Assembly: GCF_009914755.1 (NCBI RefSeq)
Contig: NC_060926.1
DNA length: 64,000 nucleotides
Origin: the human T2T-CHM13v2.0 reference genome, Homo sapiens
Reading direction: 5' to 3' (one strand)
A program made the translations under genes and the position numbers. Positions 5,201 through 64,000 of this stretch are shown here, one piece after another. The notes beneath the pieces are model-generated. The model saw only the letters and a list, made by a program, of their open reading frames with translations, was not told the origin of the DNA and ran no database searches. How positions within the stretch are numbered: the stretch's first letter is position 1; every line of letters starts with the position of its first letter.

Positions 5201-8200
5201 AGAAGCTTCATTGGGATGTTTCAGTTGAAGTCACAGTGTTGAACAGTCCCTTTCATAGAGCAGGTTTGAAACACTCTTTTTGTAGTATCTGGAAGTGGAC
5301 ATTTGGAGCGCTCTCAGGACTGCGGTGAAAAAGGAAATATCTTCCAATAAAAGCTAGATAGAAGCAATGTCAGAAACTTTTTCATGATGTATCTACTCAG
5401 CTAACAGAGTTGAACCTTCCTTTGAGAGAGCAGTTTTGAAACACTCTTTTTGTGGAATCTGCAAGTGGATATTTGTCTAGCTTTGAGGATTTCGTTGGAA
5501 ACGGGATTACATATAAAAAGCAGACAGCAGCATTCCCAGAAACTTCTTTGTGATGTTTGCATTCAAGTCACAGAGTTGAACATTCCCTTTCATAGAGCAG
5601 GTTTGAAACACTCTTTTTGTAGTATCTGGATGTGGACATTTGGAGCGCTTTCAGGCCTATGGTGAAAAAGGAAATATCTTCCCCTGAAAACTAGACAGAA
5701 GCATTCTCAGAATCTTATTTGTGATGTGCGCCCTCAACTAACAGTGTTGAAGCTTTCTTTTGATAGAGCAGTTTTGAAACACTCTTTTTGTAAAATCTGC
5801 AAGAGGATATTTGGATAGCTTTGAGGATTTCGTTGGAAACGGGATTGTCTTCATATAAACTCTAGACAGAAGCATTCTCAGAAGCTTCATTGGGATGTTT
5901 CAATTGAAGTCACAGTGTTGAACAGTCCCTTTCATAGAGCAGGTTTGAAACACTCTTTTTGTAGTATCTGGAAGTGGACATTTGGAGCGCTCTCAGGACT
6001 GCGGTGAAAAAGGAAATATCTTCCAATAAAAGCTACATAGAAGCAATGTCAGAATCTTTTTCATGATGTGTCTACTCAGCTAACAGAGTTGAACCTTCCT
6101 TTGAGAGAGCAGTTTTGAAACACTCTTTTTGTGGAATCTGCAAGTGGATATTTGTCTAGCTTTGAGGATTTCGTTGGAAACGGGATTACATATAAAAAGC
6201 AGACAGCAGCATTCCCAGAAACTTCTTTGTGATATTTGCATTCAAGTCACAGAGTTGAACATTCCCTTTCATAGAGCAGGTTTGAAACACTCTTTTTGTA
6301 GTATCTGGATGTGGACATTTGGAGCGCTTTCAGGCCTATGGTGAAAACGGAAATATCTTCCCCTGAAAACTAGACAGAAGCATTCTCAGAATCTTATTTG
6401 TGATGTGCGCCCTCAACTAACAGTGTTGAAGCTTTCTTTTGATAGAGCAGTTTTGAAACACTCTTTTTGTAAAATCTGCAAGAGGATATTTGGATAGCTT
6501 TGAGGATTTCGTTGGAAACGGGATTGTCTTCATATAAACTCTAGACAGAAGCATTCTCAGAAGCTTCATTGGGATGTTTCAATTGAAGTCACAGTGTTGA
6601 ACAGTCCCTTTCATAGAGCAGGTTTGAAACACTCTTTTTGTAGTATCTGGAAGTGGACATTTGGAGAGATCTCAGGAATACGGTGATAAAGGAAATATCT
6701 TCCAATAAAAGCTAGATAGAAGCAATGTCAGAAACTTTTTCATGATGTATCTACTCAGCTAAAAGAGTTGAACCTTTCTTTTGAAAGAGCAGTTTTGAAA
6801 CACTCTTTTTGTGGAATCTGCAAGTGGATATTTGTCTAGCTTTGAGGATTTCGTTGGAAACGGGATTACATATAAAAAGCAGACAGCAGCATTCCCAGAA
6901 ACTTCTTTGAGAAGTTTGCATTCAAGTCACAGAGTTGAACATTCCCTTTCATAGAGCAGGTTTGAAACACTCTTTTTGTAGTATCTGGATGTGGACATTT
7001 GCAGCGCTTTCAGGTCTATGGTGAAAAAGGAAATATCTTCCCCTGAAAACTAGACAGAAGCATTCTCAGAATCTTATTTGTGATGTGCGCCCTCAACTAA
7101 CAGTGTTGAAGCTTTCTTTTGATAGAGCAGTTTTGAAACACTCTTTTTGTAAAATCTGCAAGAGGATATTTTGATAGCTTTGAGGATTTCGTTGGAAACG
7201 GGATTGTCTTCATATAAACTCTAGACAGAAGCATTCTCAGAAGCTTCATTGGGATGTTTCAATTGAAGTCACAGTGTTGAACAGTCCCTTTCATAGAGCA
7301 AGTTTGAAACACTCTTTTTGTAGTATCTGGAAGTGGACATTTGGAGCGCTCTCAGGACTACGGTGATAAAGGAAATATCTTCCAATAAAAGCTAGATAGA
7401 AGCAATGTCAGAAACTTTTTCATGATGTATCTACTCAGCTAACAGAGTTGAACCTTTCTTTTGAGAGAGCAGTTTTGAAACACTCTTTTTGTGGAATCTG
7501 CAAGTGGATATTTGTCTAGCTTTGAGGATTTCGTTGGAAACGGGATTACATATAAAAACCAGACAGCAGCATTCCCAGAATCTTCTTTGTGATGTTTGCA
7601 TTCAAGTCACAGAGTTGAACATTCCCTTTCATAGAGCAGGTTTGAAACACTCTTTTTGTAGTATCTGGATGTGGACATTTGGAGCGCTTTCAGGCCTATG
7701 GTGAAAAAGGAAATATCTTCCCCTGAAAACTAGACAGAAGCATTCTCAGAATCTTATTTGTGATGTGCGCCCTCAACTAACAGTGTTGAACCTTTCTTTT
7801 GATAGAGCAGTTTTGAAACACTCTTTTTGTAAAATCTGCAAGAGGATATTTGGATAGCTTTGAGGATTTCGTTGGAAACGGGATTGTCTTCATATAAACT
7901 CCAGACAGAAGCATTCTCAGAATCTTCATTGGGATGTTTCAGTTGAAGTCACAGTGTTGAACAGTCCCTTTCATAGAGCAGGTTTGAAACACTCTTTTTG
8001 TAGTATCTGGAAGTGGACTTTTGGAGCGCTCTCAGGACTGCGGTGAAAAAGGAAATATCTTCCAATAAAAGCTAGATAGAAGCAATGTCAGAAACTTTTT
8101 CATGATGTATCTACTCAGCTAACAGAGTTGAACCTTCCTTTGAGAGAGCAGTTTTGAAACACTCTTTTTGTGGAATCTGCAAGTGGATATTTGTCTAGCT

Positions 8201-11200
8201 TTGAGGATTTCGTTGGAAACGGGATTACATATAAAAAGCAGACAGCAGCATTCCCAGAAACTTCTTTGTGATGTTTGCATTCAAGACACAGAGTTGAACA
8301 TTCCCTTTCATAGAGCAGGTTTGAAACACTCTTTTTGTAGTATCTGGATGTGGACATTTGGAGCGCTTTCAGGCCTATGGTGAAAAAGGGAATATCTTCC
8401 CCTGAAAACTAGACAGAAGCATTCTCAGAATCTTATTTGTGATGTGCGCCCTCAACTAACAGTGTTGAAGCTTTCTTTTGATAGAGCAGTTTTGAAACAC
8501 TCTTTTTGTAAAATCTGCAAGAGGATATTTGGATAGCTTTGAGGATTTCGTTGGAAACGGGATTGTCTTCATATAAACTCTAGACAGAAGCATTCTCAGA
8601 AGCTTCATTGGGATGTTTCAATTGAAGTCACAGTGTTGACCAGTCCCTTTCATAGAGCAGGTTTGAAACACTCTTTTTGTAGTATCTGGAAGTGGACATT
8701 TGGAGCGCTCTCAGGACTGCGGTGAAAAAGGAAATATCTTCCAATAAAAGCTACATAGAAGCAATGTCAGAATCTTTTTCATGATGTGTCTACTCAGCTA
8801 ACAGAGTTGAACCTTCCTTTGAGAGAGCAGTTTTGAAACACTCTTTTTGTGGAATCTGCAAGTGGATATTTGTCTAGCTTTGAGGATTTCGTTGGAAACG
8901 GGATTACATATAAAAAGCAGACAGCAGCATTCCCAGAAACTTCTTTGTGATATTTGCATTCAAGTCACAGAGTTGAACATTCCCTTTCATAGAGCAGGTT
9001 TGAAACACTCTTTTTGTAGTATCTGGATGTGGACATTTGGAGCGCTTTCAGTCCTATGGTGAAAACGGAAATATCTTCCCCTGAAAACTAGACAGAAGCA
9101 TTCTCAGAATCTTATTTGTGATGTGCGCCCTCAACTAACAGTGTTGAAGCTTTCTTTTGATAGAGCAGTTTTGAAACACTCTTTTTGTAAAATCTGCAAG
9201 AGGATATTTGGATAGCTTTGAAGATTTCGTTGGAAACGGGATTGTCTTCATATAAACTCTAGACAGAAGCATTCTCAGAAGCTTCATTGGGATGTTTCAG
9301 TTGAAGTCACAGTGTTGAACAGTCCCTTTCATAGAGCAGGTTTGAAACACTCTTTTTGTAGTATCTGGAAGTGGACATTTGGAGCGCTCTCAGGACTGCG
9401 GTGAAAAAGGAAGTATCTTCCAATAAAAGCTACATAGAAGCAATGTCAGAAACTTTTTCGTGAAGTATCTACTCAGCTAACAGAGTTGAACCTTTCTTTT
9501 GAGAGAGCAGTTTTGAAACACTCTTTTTGTGGAATCTGCAAGTGGATATTTGTCTAGCTTTGAGGATTTCGTTGGAAACGGGATTACATATAAAAAGCAG
9601 ACAGCAGCATTCCCAGAAACTTCTTTGTGATGTTTGCATTCAAGTCACACAGTTGAACATTCCCTTTCATAGAGCAGGTTTGAAACACTCTTTTTGTAGT
9701 ATCTGGATGTGGACATTTGGAGCGCTTTCAGCCCTATGGTGAAAAAGGAAATATCTTCTCCTGAAAACTAGACAGAAGCATTCTCAGAATCTTATTTGTG
9801 ATGTGCGCCCTCAACTAACAGTGTTGAAGCTTTCTTTTGATAGAGCAGTTTTGAAACACTCTTTTCGTAAAATCTGCAAGAGGATATTTTGATAGCTTTG
9901 AGGATTTCGTTGGAAACGGGATTGTCTTCATATAAACTCTAGACAGAAGCATTCTCAGAAGCTTCATTGGGATGTTTCAATTGAAGTCACAGTGTTGAAC
10001 AGTCCCTTTCATAGAGCAGGTTTGAAACACTCTTTTTGTAGTATCTGGAAGTGGACATTTGGAGAGATCTCAGGAATACGGTGATAAAGGAAATATCTTC
10101 CAATAAAAGCTAGATAGAAGCAATGTCAGAAACTTTTTCATGATGTATCTACTCAGCTAAAAGAGTTGAACCTTTCTTTTGAAAGAGCAGTTTTGAAACA
10201 CTCTTTTTGTGGAATCTGCAAGTGGATATTTGTCTAGCTTTGAGGATTTCGTTGGAAACGGGATTACATATAAAAAGCAGACAGCAGCATTCCCAGAAAC
10301 TTCTTTGTGATGTTTGCATTCAAGTCACACAGTTGAACATTCCCTTTCATAGAGCAGGTTTGAAACACTCTTTTTGTAGTATCTGGATGTGGACATTTGG
10401 AGCGCTTTCAGGTCTATGGTGAAAAAGGAAATATCTTCCCCTGAAAACTAGACAGAAGCATTCTCAGAAACTTATTTGTGATGTGCGCCCTCAACTAACA
10501 GTGTTGAACCTTTCTTTTGATAGAGCAGTTTTGAAACACTCTTTTTGTAATATCTGCAAGAGGATATTTGGATAGCTTTGAGGATTTCGTTGGAAACGGG
10601 ATTGTCTTCATATAAACTCTAGACAGAAGCATTCTCAGAAGCTTCATTGGGATGTTTCAATTGAAATCACAGTGTTGAACAGTCCCTTTCATAGAGCAGG
10701 TTTGAAACACTCTTTTTGTAGTATCTGGAAGTGGACATTTGGAGAGATCTCAGGAATACGGTGATAAAGGAAATATCTTCCAATAAAAGCTAGATAGAAG
10801 CAATGTCAGAAACTTTTTCGTGATGTATCTACTCAGCTAACAGAGTTGAACCTTTCTTTTGAGAGAGCAGTTTTGAAACACTCTTTTTGTGGAATCTGCA
10901 AGTGGATATTTGTCTAGCTTTGAGGATTTCGTTGGAAACGGGATTACATATAAAAAGCAGACAGCAGCATTCCCAGAAACTTCTTTGTGAAGTTTGCATT
11001 CAAGTCACAGAGTTGAACATTCCCTTTCATAGAGCAGGTTTGAAACACTCTTTTTGTAGTATCTGTATGTGGACATTTGGAGCGCTTTCAGGCCTATGGT
11101 GAAAACGGAAATATCTTCCCCTGAAAACTAGACAGAAGCATTCTCAGAATCTTATTTGTGATGTGCGCCCTCAACTAACAGTGTTGAAGCTTTCTTTTGA

Positions 11201-60500: not shown

Positions 60501-63500
60501 ATTTGGATAGCTTTGAGGATTTCGTTGGAAACGGGATTGTCTTCATATAAACTCTAGACAGAAGCATTCTCAGAAGCTTCATTGGGATGTTTCAATTGAA
60601 GTCACAGTGTTGAACAGTCCCTTTCATAGAGCAGGTTTGAAACACTCTTTTTGTAGTATCTGGAAGTGGACATTTGGAGAGATCTCAGGAATACGGTGAT
60701 AAAGGAAATATCTTCCAATAAAAGCTACATAGAAGCAGTGTCAGAAACTTTTTCATGATGTATCTACTCAGCTAACAGAGTTGAACCTTTCTTTTGAGAG
60801 AGCAGTTTTGAAACACTCTTTTTGTGGAATCTGCAAGTGGATATTTGTCTAGCTTTGAGGATTTCGTTGGAAACGGGATTACATATAAAAAGCAGACAGC
60901 TGCATTCCCAGAAACTTCTTTGTGATGTTTGCATTCAAGTCACAGAGTTGAACATTCCCTTTCATAGAGCAGGCTTGAAACACTCTTTTTGTAGTATCTG
61001 GATGTGGACATTTGGAGCGCTTTCAGGCCTATGGTGAAAAAGGAAATATCTTCCCCTGAAAACTAGACAGAAGCATTCTCAGAATCTTATTTGTGATATG
61101 CGCTCTCAACTAACAGTGTTGAAGCTTTCTTTTGATAGAGCAGTTTTGAAACACTCTTTTTGTAAAATCTGCAAGAGGATATTTGGATAGCTTTGAGGAT
61201 TTCGTTGGAAACGGGATTGTCTTCATATAAACTCTAGACAGAAGCATTCTCAGAAGCTTCATTGGGATGTTTCAATTGAAGTCACAGTGTTGAACAGTCC
61301 CTTTCATAGAGCAGGTTTGAAACACTCTTTTTGTAGTATCTGGAAGTGGACATTTGGAGCGCTCTCAGGACTGCGGTGAAAAAGGAAATATCTTCCAATA
61401 AAAGCTAGATAGAAGCAATGTCAGAAACTTTTTCATGATGTATCTACTCAGCTAACAGAGTTGAACCTTCCTTTGAGAGAGCAGTTTTGAAACACTCTTT
61501 TTGTGGAATCTGCAAGTGGATATTTGTCTAGCTTTGAGGATTTCGTTGGAAACGGGATTACATATAAAAAGCAGACAGCAGCATTCCCAGAAACTTCTTT
61601 GTGATGTTTGCATTCAAGTCACAGAGTTGAACATTCCCTTTCATAGAGCAGGTTTGAAACACTCTTTTTGTAGTATCTGGATGTGGACATTTACAGCGCT
61701 TTCAGGCCTAAGGTGAAAAAGGAAATATCTTCCCCTGAAAACTAGACAGAAGCATTCTCAGAAACTTATTTGTGATGTGCGCCCTCAACTAACAGTGTTG
61801 AAGCTTTCTTTTGATAGAGCAGTTTTGAAACACTCTTTTTGTGGAATCTGCAAGTGGATATTTGTCTAGCTTTGAGGATTTCGTTGGAAACGGGATTACA
61901 TATAAAAAGCAGACAGCAGCATTCCCAGAATCTTGTTTGTGATGTTTGCATTCAAGTCACAGAGTTGAACATTCCCTTTCAGAGAGCAGGTTTGAAACAC
62001 TCTTTTTATAGTATCTGGATGTGGACATTTTGAGCGCTTTCAGGCCTATGGTGAAAAAGGAAATATCTTCTCCTGAAAACTAGACAGAAGCATTCTCAGA
62101 ATCTTATTTGTGATGTGCGCCCTCAACTAACAGTGTTGAAGCTTTCTTTTGATAGAGCAGTTTTGAAACACTCTTTTCGTAAAACCTGCAAGAGGATATT
62201 TTGATAGCTTTGAGGATTTCGTTGGAAACGGGATTGTCTTCATATAAACTCTAGACAGAAGCATTCTCAGAAGCTTCATTGGGATGTTTCAATTGAAGTC
62301 ACAGTGTTGAACAGTCCCTTTCATAGAGCAGGTTTGAAACACTCTTTTTGTAGTATCTGGAAGTGGACATTTGGAGAGATCTCAGGAATACGGTGATAAA
62401 GGAAATATCTTCCAATAAAAGCTAGATAGAAGCAATGTCAGAAACTTTTTCATGACGTACCTACTCAGCTAACAGAGTTGAACCTTTCTTTTGAGAGAGC
62501 AGTTTTGAAACACTCTTTTTGTGGAATCTGCAAGTGGATATTTGTCTAGTTTTGAGGATTTCGTTGGAAACGGGATTACATATAAAAAGCAGACAGCTGC
62601 ATTCCCAGAAACTTCTTTGTGATGTTTGCATTCAAGTCACAGAGTTGAACATTCCCTTTCATAGAGCAGGCTTGAAACACTCTTTTTGTAGTATCTGGAT
62701 GTGGACATTTGGAGCGCTTTCAGGCCTATGGTGAAAAAGGAAATATCTTCCCCTGAAAACTAGACAGAAGCATTCTCAGAATCTTATTTGTGATGTGCGC
62801 CCTCAACTAACAGTGTTGAAGCTTTCTTTTGATAGAGCAGTTTTGAAACACTCTTTTTGTAAAATCTGCAAGAGGATATTTGGATAGCTTTGAGGATTTC
62901 GTTGGAAACGGGATTGTCTTCATATAAACTCTAGACAGAAGCATTCTCAGAAGCTTCATTGGGATGTTTCAATTGAAGTCACAGTGTTGAACAGTCCCTT
63001 TCATAGAGGAGGTTTGAAACACTCTTTTTGTAGTATCTGGAAGTGGACATTTGGAGTGATCTAAGGAATACGGTGATAAAGGAAATATCTTCCAATAAAA
63101 GCTAGATAGAAGCAATGTCAGAAACTTTTTCATGATGTATCTACTCAGCTAACAGAGTTGAACCTTTCTTTTGAGAGAGCAGTTTTGAAACACTCTTTTT
63201 GTGGAATCTGCAAGTGGATATTTGTCTAGCTTTGAGGATTTCGTTGGAAACGGGATTACATATAAAAAGCAGACAGCAGCATTCCCAGAAACTTCTTTGT
63301 GAAGTTTGCATTCAAGTCACAGAGTTGAACATTCCCTTTCATAGAGCAGGTTTGAAACACTCTTTTTGTAGTATCTGTATGTGGACATTTGGAGCGCTTT
63401 CAGGCCTATGGTGAAAAAGGAAATATCTTCCCCTGAAAACTAGACAGAAGCATTCTCAGAATCTTATTTGTGATGTGCGCCCTCAACTAACAGTGTTGAA

Positions 63501-63976
63501 GCTTTCTTTTGATAGAGCAGTTTTGAAACACTCTTTTTGTAAAATCTGCAAGAGGATATTTGGATAGCTTTGAGGATTTCGTTGGAAATGGGATTGTCTT
63601 CATATAAACTCTAGACAGAAGCATTCTCAGAAGCTTCATTGGGATGTTTCAATTGAAGTCACAGTGTTGAACAGTCCCTTTCATAGAGCAGGTTTGAAAC
63701 ACTCTTTTTGTAGTATCTGGAAGTGGACATTTGGAGCGCTCTCAGGACTACGGTGAAAAAGGAAGTATCTTCCAATAAAAGCTAGATAGAAGCAATGTCA
63801 GAAACTTTTTCATGATGTATCTACTCAGCTAACAGAGTTGAACCTTTCTTTTGAGAGAGCAGTTTTGAAACACTCTTTTTGTGGAATCTGCAAGTGGATA
63901 TTTGTCTAGCTTTGAGGATTTCGTTGGAAACGGGATTACATATAAAAAGCAGACAGCAGCATTCCCAGAAACTTCT

Positions 63977-64000
63977 GGAATGTTCAACTGTGTGACTTGA
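63977..64000 (-). repeat. Alpha-satellite in inverted orientation (start of an inverted segment)
   Basis: GGAATGTTCAACTGTGTGACTTGA is the exact reverse complement of TCAAGTCACACAGTTGAACATTCC, which occurs on the + strand of several HORs (e.g. units starting 20402, 38402, 58102). Confidence 0.9.

What the first reader, a model, noticed from the sequence alone, without database searches (positions are those of the whole stretch)
63961..64000. Strand switch: candidate inversion breakpoint inside the HOR array
Seen: all alpha-satellite up to 63976 is in one orientation. After ...CCCAGAAACTTCT the expected TTGTGATG is replaced by a perfect 24-nt reverse complement of the same HOR (TCAAGTCACACAGTTGAACATTCC). 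No microhomology is evident at the join (forward would continue TTGT; the reverse strand would be preceded by AAAG). Known: active HOR arrays are normally unidirectional and inversions are rare, though reported (e.g. in D1Z7 of T2T-CHM13). Inference: this is the left breakpoint of an inversion whose length cannot be seen because the window ends.
Basis: partly seen in the sequence, partly recalled or inferred. Interest (0 to 1): 0.85.

Follow-up and report, generated by a model that had tools for sequence, protein, structure and literature searches.

The report
Tiny inverted duplication in chr2 alpha-satellite
The strand switch at the window's end is real, but it is only a 45-base inverted copy inside one centromeric repeat unit, after which the array runs on in its usual direction, so it is a small local mutation and not a large centromere inversion.

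Summary
Bases 63977-64000 are a perfect reverse complement of a 24-mer that occurs 13 times in forward sense in the window. The implied array inversion does not hold. DNA beyond the window shows the reversed stretch is 45 nt (63977-64021), and the array resumes forward sense at 64022. The 45 nt are the reverse complement of the monomer's own sequence, from 6 nt left to 39 nt right of the join. They replace 13 nt (net +32 nt) and create a perfect 26-nt-arm inverted repeat with a 19-nt spacer. One switch-and-return operation on an ordinary copy of the same monomer reproduces both observed copies, with 1 mismatch in 123 nt each. This is the "3-1-4-2" pattern of short template-switch mutations (PMC5453318). 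The junction occurs exactly twice in the genome, 3090 bp apart, inside a 99.9% identical tandem duplication. That argues against a single-read artefact. No other reversed stretch was found in 294 kb. Verdict: a real, small, mechanistically familiar event in an unusual place, of low interest.

The parts
63957..63976 (+). Last forward-sense bases before the join (fragment F1 ends at 63976, ...CAGCATTCCCAGAAACTTCT). The final ACTTCT (63971-63976) is the left arm of a minor 6-nt inverted repeat. This is also the start of the carrier HOR copy, which measures 712 bp anchor to anchor (63957-64668, running past the window end) against the usual 679-680 bp.
63977..64000 (-). In-window part (24 of 45 nt) of the inverted fragment F2. 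The whole fragment is 63977-64021 in window numbering; 64001-64021 is the first 21 nt of locus L003. It is the reverse complement of the monomer's own ACTTCT + 13 nt + 26 nt. Copy 1 has one derived base (T at 64017, where copy 2 and the array have G). These 24 nt also belong to the 26-nt left arm (63977-64002) of the new 71-nt palindromic module: spacer 64003-64021, right arm 64022-64047 in forward sense, both beyond the window. The arms are perfectly complementary in copy 1.
   Evidence: DNA fold of the module -30.3 kcal/mol, z -8.08, 0 of 200 shuffles as good. Ordinary copies give -6.2 (z 0.06) and -9.2 (z -1.61).
63919..63935 (+). 17-mer TTTCGTTGGAAACGGGA, 41 nt upstream of the join. It fits the CENP-B box consensus as I recall it; the consensus comes from no call.
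   Evidence: The 16-mer core occurs 681 forward and 0 reverse in 294 kb.
61764..64000 (+). In-window part of the first copy of a tandem duplication with a 3090-bp shift. The whole first copy is about 61764-64932 in window numbering and matches 64854-68022 with 3 differences in about 3168 nt. The second copy, wholly beyond the window, carries the second 45-nt inverted fragment at 67067-67111 (chr2:93873067-93873111, in L002/L003). That fragment is a perfect reverse complement of the ordinary monomer, and its right arm has one derived base (A at 67132).

Best explanation
One local switch-and-return copying error occurred inside a single alpha-satellite monomer of the chr2 HOR array. Synthesis ran forward to ...ACTTCT (point 1). 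It jumped 39 nt ahead onto the complementary strand (point 2) and copied 45 nt backwards, to 6 nt left of where it had departed (point 3). It then returned to the original template 13 nt right of the departure point (point 4). The product is F1 + reverse-complemented F2 (45 nt) + F3. The 13-nt core is inverted and flanked by inverted duplicates of 26 nt and 6 nt, for a net gain of 32 nt and a new 26-nt-arm palindrome. This is the '3-1-4-2' type of the four-point template-switch model. The resulting 712-bp HOR copy was later carried along by a tandem duplication of about 3.09 kb, most simply by out-of-register exchange within the array. Each copy has since gained one point change in the module. 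Shown: the structure, its local templating, its two copies and the duplication. Inferred: that the switch happened during DNA replication or repair synthesis, and the order of events.
For: Forward sense resumes at 64022. Applying the four-point operation to an ordinary copy of the same monomer (window 58180 onward) predicts both observed copies with 1 mismatch in 123 nt each; F2 is 45 nt. The reversed copy and the retained forward arm both carry the minority ACACAG variant, found in 15 copies against 120 with ACAGAG in 94 kb, as expected if the monomer templated its own inverted copy. Both junctions occur at exactly 2 places in the 3.1-Gb assembly with up to 3 mismatches allowed. The two places lie in a shift-3090 duplicate with 3 differences in about 3168 nt, while neighbouring in-register HOR copies are 94-98% identical. 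At each of the 2 differences inside the module, one copy keeps the state predicted from the ordinary monomer copy used as reference, so the event predates the duplication. [quoted passage not shown]
Against: There is no microhomology at either junction, and a primer end that re-anneals would be expected to use some. Type 3-1-4-2 made up only 1% of the human-chimpanzee events in PMC5453318. The ordinary monomer has no pre-existing quasi-palindrome that could guide a switch (fold z 0.06). The product alone cannot separate replicative switching from break repair. No raw reads or other human assemblies could be examined.
Confidence: 0.6

Rival explanations
1. Break repair gave the same product. 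Two staggered double-strand breaks, with staggers of 6 nt and 26 nt and 13 nt apart, were filled in. The freed 45-bp blunt fragment was then re-ligated in flipped orientation by end joining.
For: Both joints are blunt with no microhomology, which suits classical end joining. Fill-in of staggered ends yields exactly an inverted core flanked by inverted duplicates. PMC8755829 (abstract and passages) argues that many human microinversions fit double-strand-break repair better than template switching.
Against: It needs four nicks within about 45 bp and recapture of a very short fragment. The model is applied here from my own knowledge of staggered-break inversion models and was not tested. The microinversions in PMC8755829 are flanked by pre-existing inverted repeats, which are absent here.
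Confidence: 0.25
2. A 45-nt piece of another copy of the array was captured in reverse orientation at a break that also lost 13 nt.
For: The array offers thousands of near-identical donors: 3340 forward matches to the ordinary 45-mer.
Against: The inserted piece covers exactly the deleted 13 nt plus both of its flanks. It also shares the minority ACACAG variant with the recipient monomer (15 against 120 copies in 94 kb). By my own rough estimate (33 of 680 start positions x 1/2 for orientation x 0.11), the chance of both is about 0.3%.
Confidence: 0.05
3. The reversed piece is an assembly or read artefact.
For: Palindromic joins can arise in library preparation. 2 of the 3 differences between the duplicates fall in the 71-nt module, which could also reflect consensus errors there.
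Against: The junction is present twice, 3090 bp apart, in copies that each carry their own base change. The reversed stretch returns cleanly to forward sense after 45 nt, unlike a fold-back read. The contig continues for megabases.
Confidence: 0.05
4. One reading: this is the left breakpoint of a larger inversion within the active HOR array.
For: A true strand switch at 63976/63977.
Against: Forward sense resumes 45 nt later. A CENP-B-box-like 16-mer is 681 forward and 0 reverse over chr2:93806001-94100000, and no other reversed stretch was found there. Genome-wide, the ordinary 45-mer of this monomer is 3340 forward and 1 reverse.
Confidence: 0.01

Closest known systems
Short template-switch mutations, four-point model, type 3-1-4-2 (Loytynoja & Goldman 2017, PMC5453318; passages read)
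   Same: The derived sequence equals F1 + reverse complement of a nearby fragment + F3. The switch points lie in the order 3-1-4-2. The result is two new inverted repeats around an inverted spacer and a hairpin-forming module created in one step.
   Different: It lies in a satellite HOR array, a sequence class that the genome-wide surveys removed as masked repeats (PMC9435742, passages). F2 is 45 nt. The product was then amplified by array duplication.
[quoted passage not shown]
   Same: A strand switch within an active-type HOR array.
   Different: That inversion spans megabases and thousands of monomers and shows in monomer-level strand tracks. This one is 45 nt, lies inside one monomer and leaves array polarity unchanged.
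Human-chimpanzee microinversions of 17-33 nt flanked by inverted repeats (PMC8755829; abstract and passages)
   Same: A short inverted core (13 nt here) bounded by inverted repeats.
   Different: In those cases the flanking repeats pre-exist and the length is unchanged. Here the repeats were created by the event itself (+32 nt), and the ordinary monomer has no such repeat.
Fold-back inverted duplications (PMC3907307 and PMC10622511; search listing and abstracts only)
   Same: A head-to-head join with a short spacer.
   Different: Fold-back products continue in reversed sense for kilobases to megabases. Here synthesis returns to the forward template after 45 nt.

Membership tests
Array-scale inversion of an HOR array | A junction where monomer sense flips | tested here: met
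   63976/63977
Array-scale inversion of an HOR array | The inverted block contains whole monomers or HOR copies | tested here: not met
   The reversed stretch is 45 nt, and forward sense resumes at 64022
Array-scale inversion of an HOR array | No net gain of sequence; pre-existing DNA is flipped | tested here: not met
   Net +32 nt; the HOR copy is 712 bp instead of 680 bp
Short template-switch mutation (four-point model) | The mutant equals F1 + reverse-complemented local fragment + F3 of a single reference | tested here: met
   The prediction from the ordinary copy at window 58180 matches each observed copy with 1 mismatch in 123 nt
Short template-switch mutation (four-point model) | The 2->3 fragment is long enough to exclude chance (the authors used >=14 nt) | tested here: met
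   45 nt; threshold from PMC5453318 passages
Short template-switch mutation (four-point model) | [quoted passage not shown] | tested here: met
   26-nt and 6-nt repeats around an inverted 13-nt core
Short template-switch mutation (four-point model) | Arises through a polymerase template switch within one fork | not testable with these tools
   Only the product is visible, and the joints lack microhomology
Classical quasi-palindrome correction (Ripley-type) | A pre-existing imperfect inverted repeat is converted to a perfect one | tested here: not met
   Ordinary copies fold no better than shuffles (z 0.06 and -1.61)
Fold-back inverted duplication | Reversed sense continues as a long mirror copy | tested here: not met
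   Sense returns to forward after 45 nt

The most novel reading that the evidence does not exclude
Switch-and-return events create long perfect palindromes inside active centromeric HOR arrays. These palindromes are then amplified with the array and act as local mutation hot spots, or as cruciform-forming sites next to CENP-B boxes. The hint is that 2 of the 3 differences between the two 99.9%-identical duplicates lie within the 71-nt module (P about 0.0015 for a pre-specified region). The module folds at -30 kcal/mol, against -6 to -9 for ordinary copies.
Probability: 0.15. Interest if true: 0.45.

Novelty: new member of a known kind. Interest (0 to 1): 0.2.

Why it matters
The finding removes a false lead: there is no sign of an array-level inversion in the chr2 centromere at this site. 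It also shows that short inverted-copy mutations occur and spread inside homogeneous HOR arrays. These events are well described in unique DNA. Monomer-level strand annotation cannot see events shorter than a monomer (methods passage of PMC11062924), and template-switch surveys mask repeats. The junction sequence is a unique two-copy marker within a 2.4-Mb repeat array. It could help in tracing this centromere haplotype or in checking assemblies.

Tried and rejected
- **Large inversion:** rejected by reading 230 kb downstream.
- **Perfect tandem 3090-bp units beyond two copies:** an ungapped comparison of the two 3090-bp stretches that start at each join gave 57%, because the HOR unit order differs after about 955 nt. 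The duplication is a single one.
- **Altemose et al., journal version:** the PMC id I recalled is not held. I used the bioRxiv version, whose supplementary tables (S6, S7 on strand anomalies) I could not see.
- **chr2 in Altemose et al.:** the bioRxiv main text does not contain chr2, cen2, S2C2H1L or D2Z1 as whole words.
- **Pfam on the L1-like insert:** 0 families. The PDB sequence search then identified it.
- **Prior description in print:** literature searches and passages read turned up no description of sub-monomer inverted copies in human HOR arrays. This rests on those searches only.

Full report
**What is at the coordinates**

The window is alpha-satellite throughout. TRF reports periods of 171 and 338 bp up to 63976. 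A 20-mer that marks one monomer of the repeat recurs 94 times, always on the plus strand, mostly 679-680 bp apart with occasional 338-bp steps. The names D2Z1 and S2C2H1L for this array are recalled and come from no call.

At 63976/63977 the sequence ...CAGCATTCCCAGAAACTTCT is followed by GGAATGTTCAACTGTGTGACTTGA to the window end. That 24-mer is the exact reverse complement of a stretch present 13 times in forward sense in the window; none of 100 shuffles gave a match. The junction 25-mer is unique in the window, even at 3 mismatches.

**What lies beyond the window**

The window's own assembly could be searched. The window is chr2:93806001-93870000 of a 3.1-Gb, 24-contig genome. I fetched the next 30 kb and later 200 kb more, which gave 294 kb of contiguous sequence. 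Coordinates above 64000 in this report continue the window's numbering into that DNA.

Strand-specific k-mer painting shows that the reversed stretch ends after 45 nt, at 64021, and that ordinary forward-sense monomer sequence resumes at 64022. Over the whole 294 kb, a scan for k-mers that are rare while their reverse complements are common flags only two places: 63977-64021 and 67067-67111. In the same 294 kb a CENP-B-box-like 16-mer occurs 681 times forward and 0 times reverse. Genome-wide, the ordinary 45-mer of this monomer is found 3340 times forward and once reverse (counts are lower bounds). The array therefore does not change polarity here.

**Anatomy of the event**

An ordinary copy of this monomer reads ...ACTTCT | TTGTGATGTTTGC | ATTCAAGTCACACAGTTGAACATTCC | CTTTC... 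In the variant, the 13-nt middle piece is replaced by 45 nt. These 45 nt are the reverse complement of ACTTCT + the 13 nt + the 26 nt that follow.

I took the ordinary copy at window 58180 and applied one switch-and-return operation by coordinates:
- F1 runs up to ...CTTCT.
- F2 is the reverse complement of the stretch from 6 nt left to 39 nt right of that point.
- F3 resumes 13 nt right of that point.

This reproduces both observed copies with a single mismatch each over 123 nt. The net gain is 32 nt, which is why the carrier HOR copies measure 712 bp instead of 680 bp.

The product contains a perfect 26-nt inverted repeat (63977-64002 and 64022-64047) around a 19-nt spacer, plus a minor 6-nt repeat. 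As single-stranded DNA the module folds at -30.3 kcal/mol (z -8.08; 0 of 200 shuffles as good) in copy 1 and at -27.4 (z -7.47) in copy 2. Two ordinary copies of the same stretch give -6.2 (z 0.06) and -9.2 (z -1.61). So the palindrome is new and was not built on an older quasi-palindrome.

**Local origin**

The reversed copy and the retained forward arm both carry the ACACAG variant of this monomer. In the first 94 kb that variant is in the minority: 15 exact 24-mers against 120 with ACAGAG. The reversed piece also spans exactly the 13 nt it replaces. Both facts fit a monomer that templated its own inverted copy, and they make capture of a random array fragment unlikely.

**Two copies and the artefact question**

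Both the left and the right junction occur at exactly two places in the genome with up to 3 mismatches allowed: chr2:93869966 and chr2:93873056, both on the plus strand and 3090 bp apart. At a shift of 3090 bp the sequence is identical from about 61764 to 64932, apart from three positions: 62185/65275, 64017/67107 and 64042/67132. Neighbouring in-register HOR copies are 94-98% identical.

3090 equals 4 x 680 + 338 + 32, so a block of HOR units that already carried the +32 event was duplicated once in tandem. At 64017/67107 copy 2 keeps the state predicted from the ordinary monomer copy used as reference (window 58180), and at 64042/67132 copy 1 does. Each copy has therefore changed once since the duplication.

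This history speaks against a chimeric-read artefact: the event came first, then the duplication, then independent point changes. Only raw reads can settle the matter, and I had none.

**Mechanism**

The product is the '3-1-4-2' configuration of the four-point template-switch model. The authors describe it as converting the spacer and creating two inverted repeats, and it made up 1% of their human-chimpanzee events (PMC5453318, passages).

I take a replicative or repair-synthesis switch-and-return as the most likely origin (0.6). The blunt joints without microhomology fit equally well a rival in which two staggered breaks are filled in and the freed 45-bp piece is re-ligated flipped (0.25). 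A paper on human microinversions likewise prefers break repair for cases that template switching explains poorly (PMC8755829, abstract and passages). The two routes give the same sequence and cannot be separated here.

**Comparison with what is known**

[quoted passage not shown] Its main text does not mention chr2 by the words I searched. I could not see its supplementary tables.
- A 2025 preprint on 2,110 centromeres lists large duplications, deletions or inversions on chromosomes 1, 4, 5, 7, 10, 12, 13, 17, 19 and 20, and not on chromosome 2 (PMC12822586, passages).
- A 2026 pangenome preprint counts only inversions above 20 kb in its higher-resolution summaries (PMC13684623, passages).
- Strand annotation in these studies is per monomer (PMC11062924, methods passage), and template-switch surveys remove masked repeats (PMC9435742, passages). 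A 45-nt event inside a monomer would escape both.
- My searches found no description of such an event in a human HOR array.

This is a new instance of a known mutation type, not a new kind of thing.

**Open hint**

Two of the three differences between the duplicates fall within the 71-nt module. For a region fixed in advance, the chance of that is about 0.0015. It may mean that the palindrome mutates faster, or that consensus calling is weaker there. With three events this is only a lead.

**Verdict**

The feature is a real 45-nt inverted self-copy within one monomer, duplicated once along with about 3.09 kb of array. Interest is low (0.2).

Noticed in passing
Outside the window: L016:8901-9680 (chr2:~94008901-94009680), L018:~1301-2080 and L018:~7501-8280: Three copies, about 99.8% identical, of a ~780-bp non-alpha-satellite insert lie within the HOR array, 12.4 and 6.2 kb apart. 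The minus strand encodes the last 147 residues of LINE-1 ORF2 protein (residues 1129-1275, E 1e-99 against solved structures; Pfam gave nothing). This is followed by T runs on the plus strand with a short extra piece between them. It looks like a 5'-truncated L1 insertion that was then amplified with the array. Altemose et al. note that L1s in HOR arrays are extremely rare.
   Followed up: partly
window numbering 64017 and 64042 (just past the window end, in L003) versus 67107 and 67132: 2 of the 3 base differences between the two 99.9%-identical 3.09-kb duplicates lie inside the 71-nt palindromic module (P about 0.0015). This could be hairpin-linked mutability or consensus error.
   Followed up: partly
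Genome-wide (place not listed by the tool): The ordinary 45-mer of this monomer matches 3340 times forward and once in reverse in the assembly. The single reverse place was not shown and was not located. It could be another small reversed piece.
   Followed up: no
window 22520-64000 and beyond: The array mixes 679-680-bp units with 338-bp units in recurring orders (for example 680, 680, 680, 679, 679, 338). This gives larger periodicities of about 3.06-5.1 kb.
   Followed up: no
window 62185: The third difference between the duplicates: copy 1 has a C in a 25-mer context found once in 294 kb, while copy 2 has the T state found 23 times. The change is therefore private to copy 1.
   Followed up: partly
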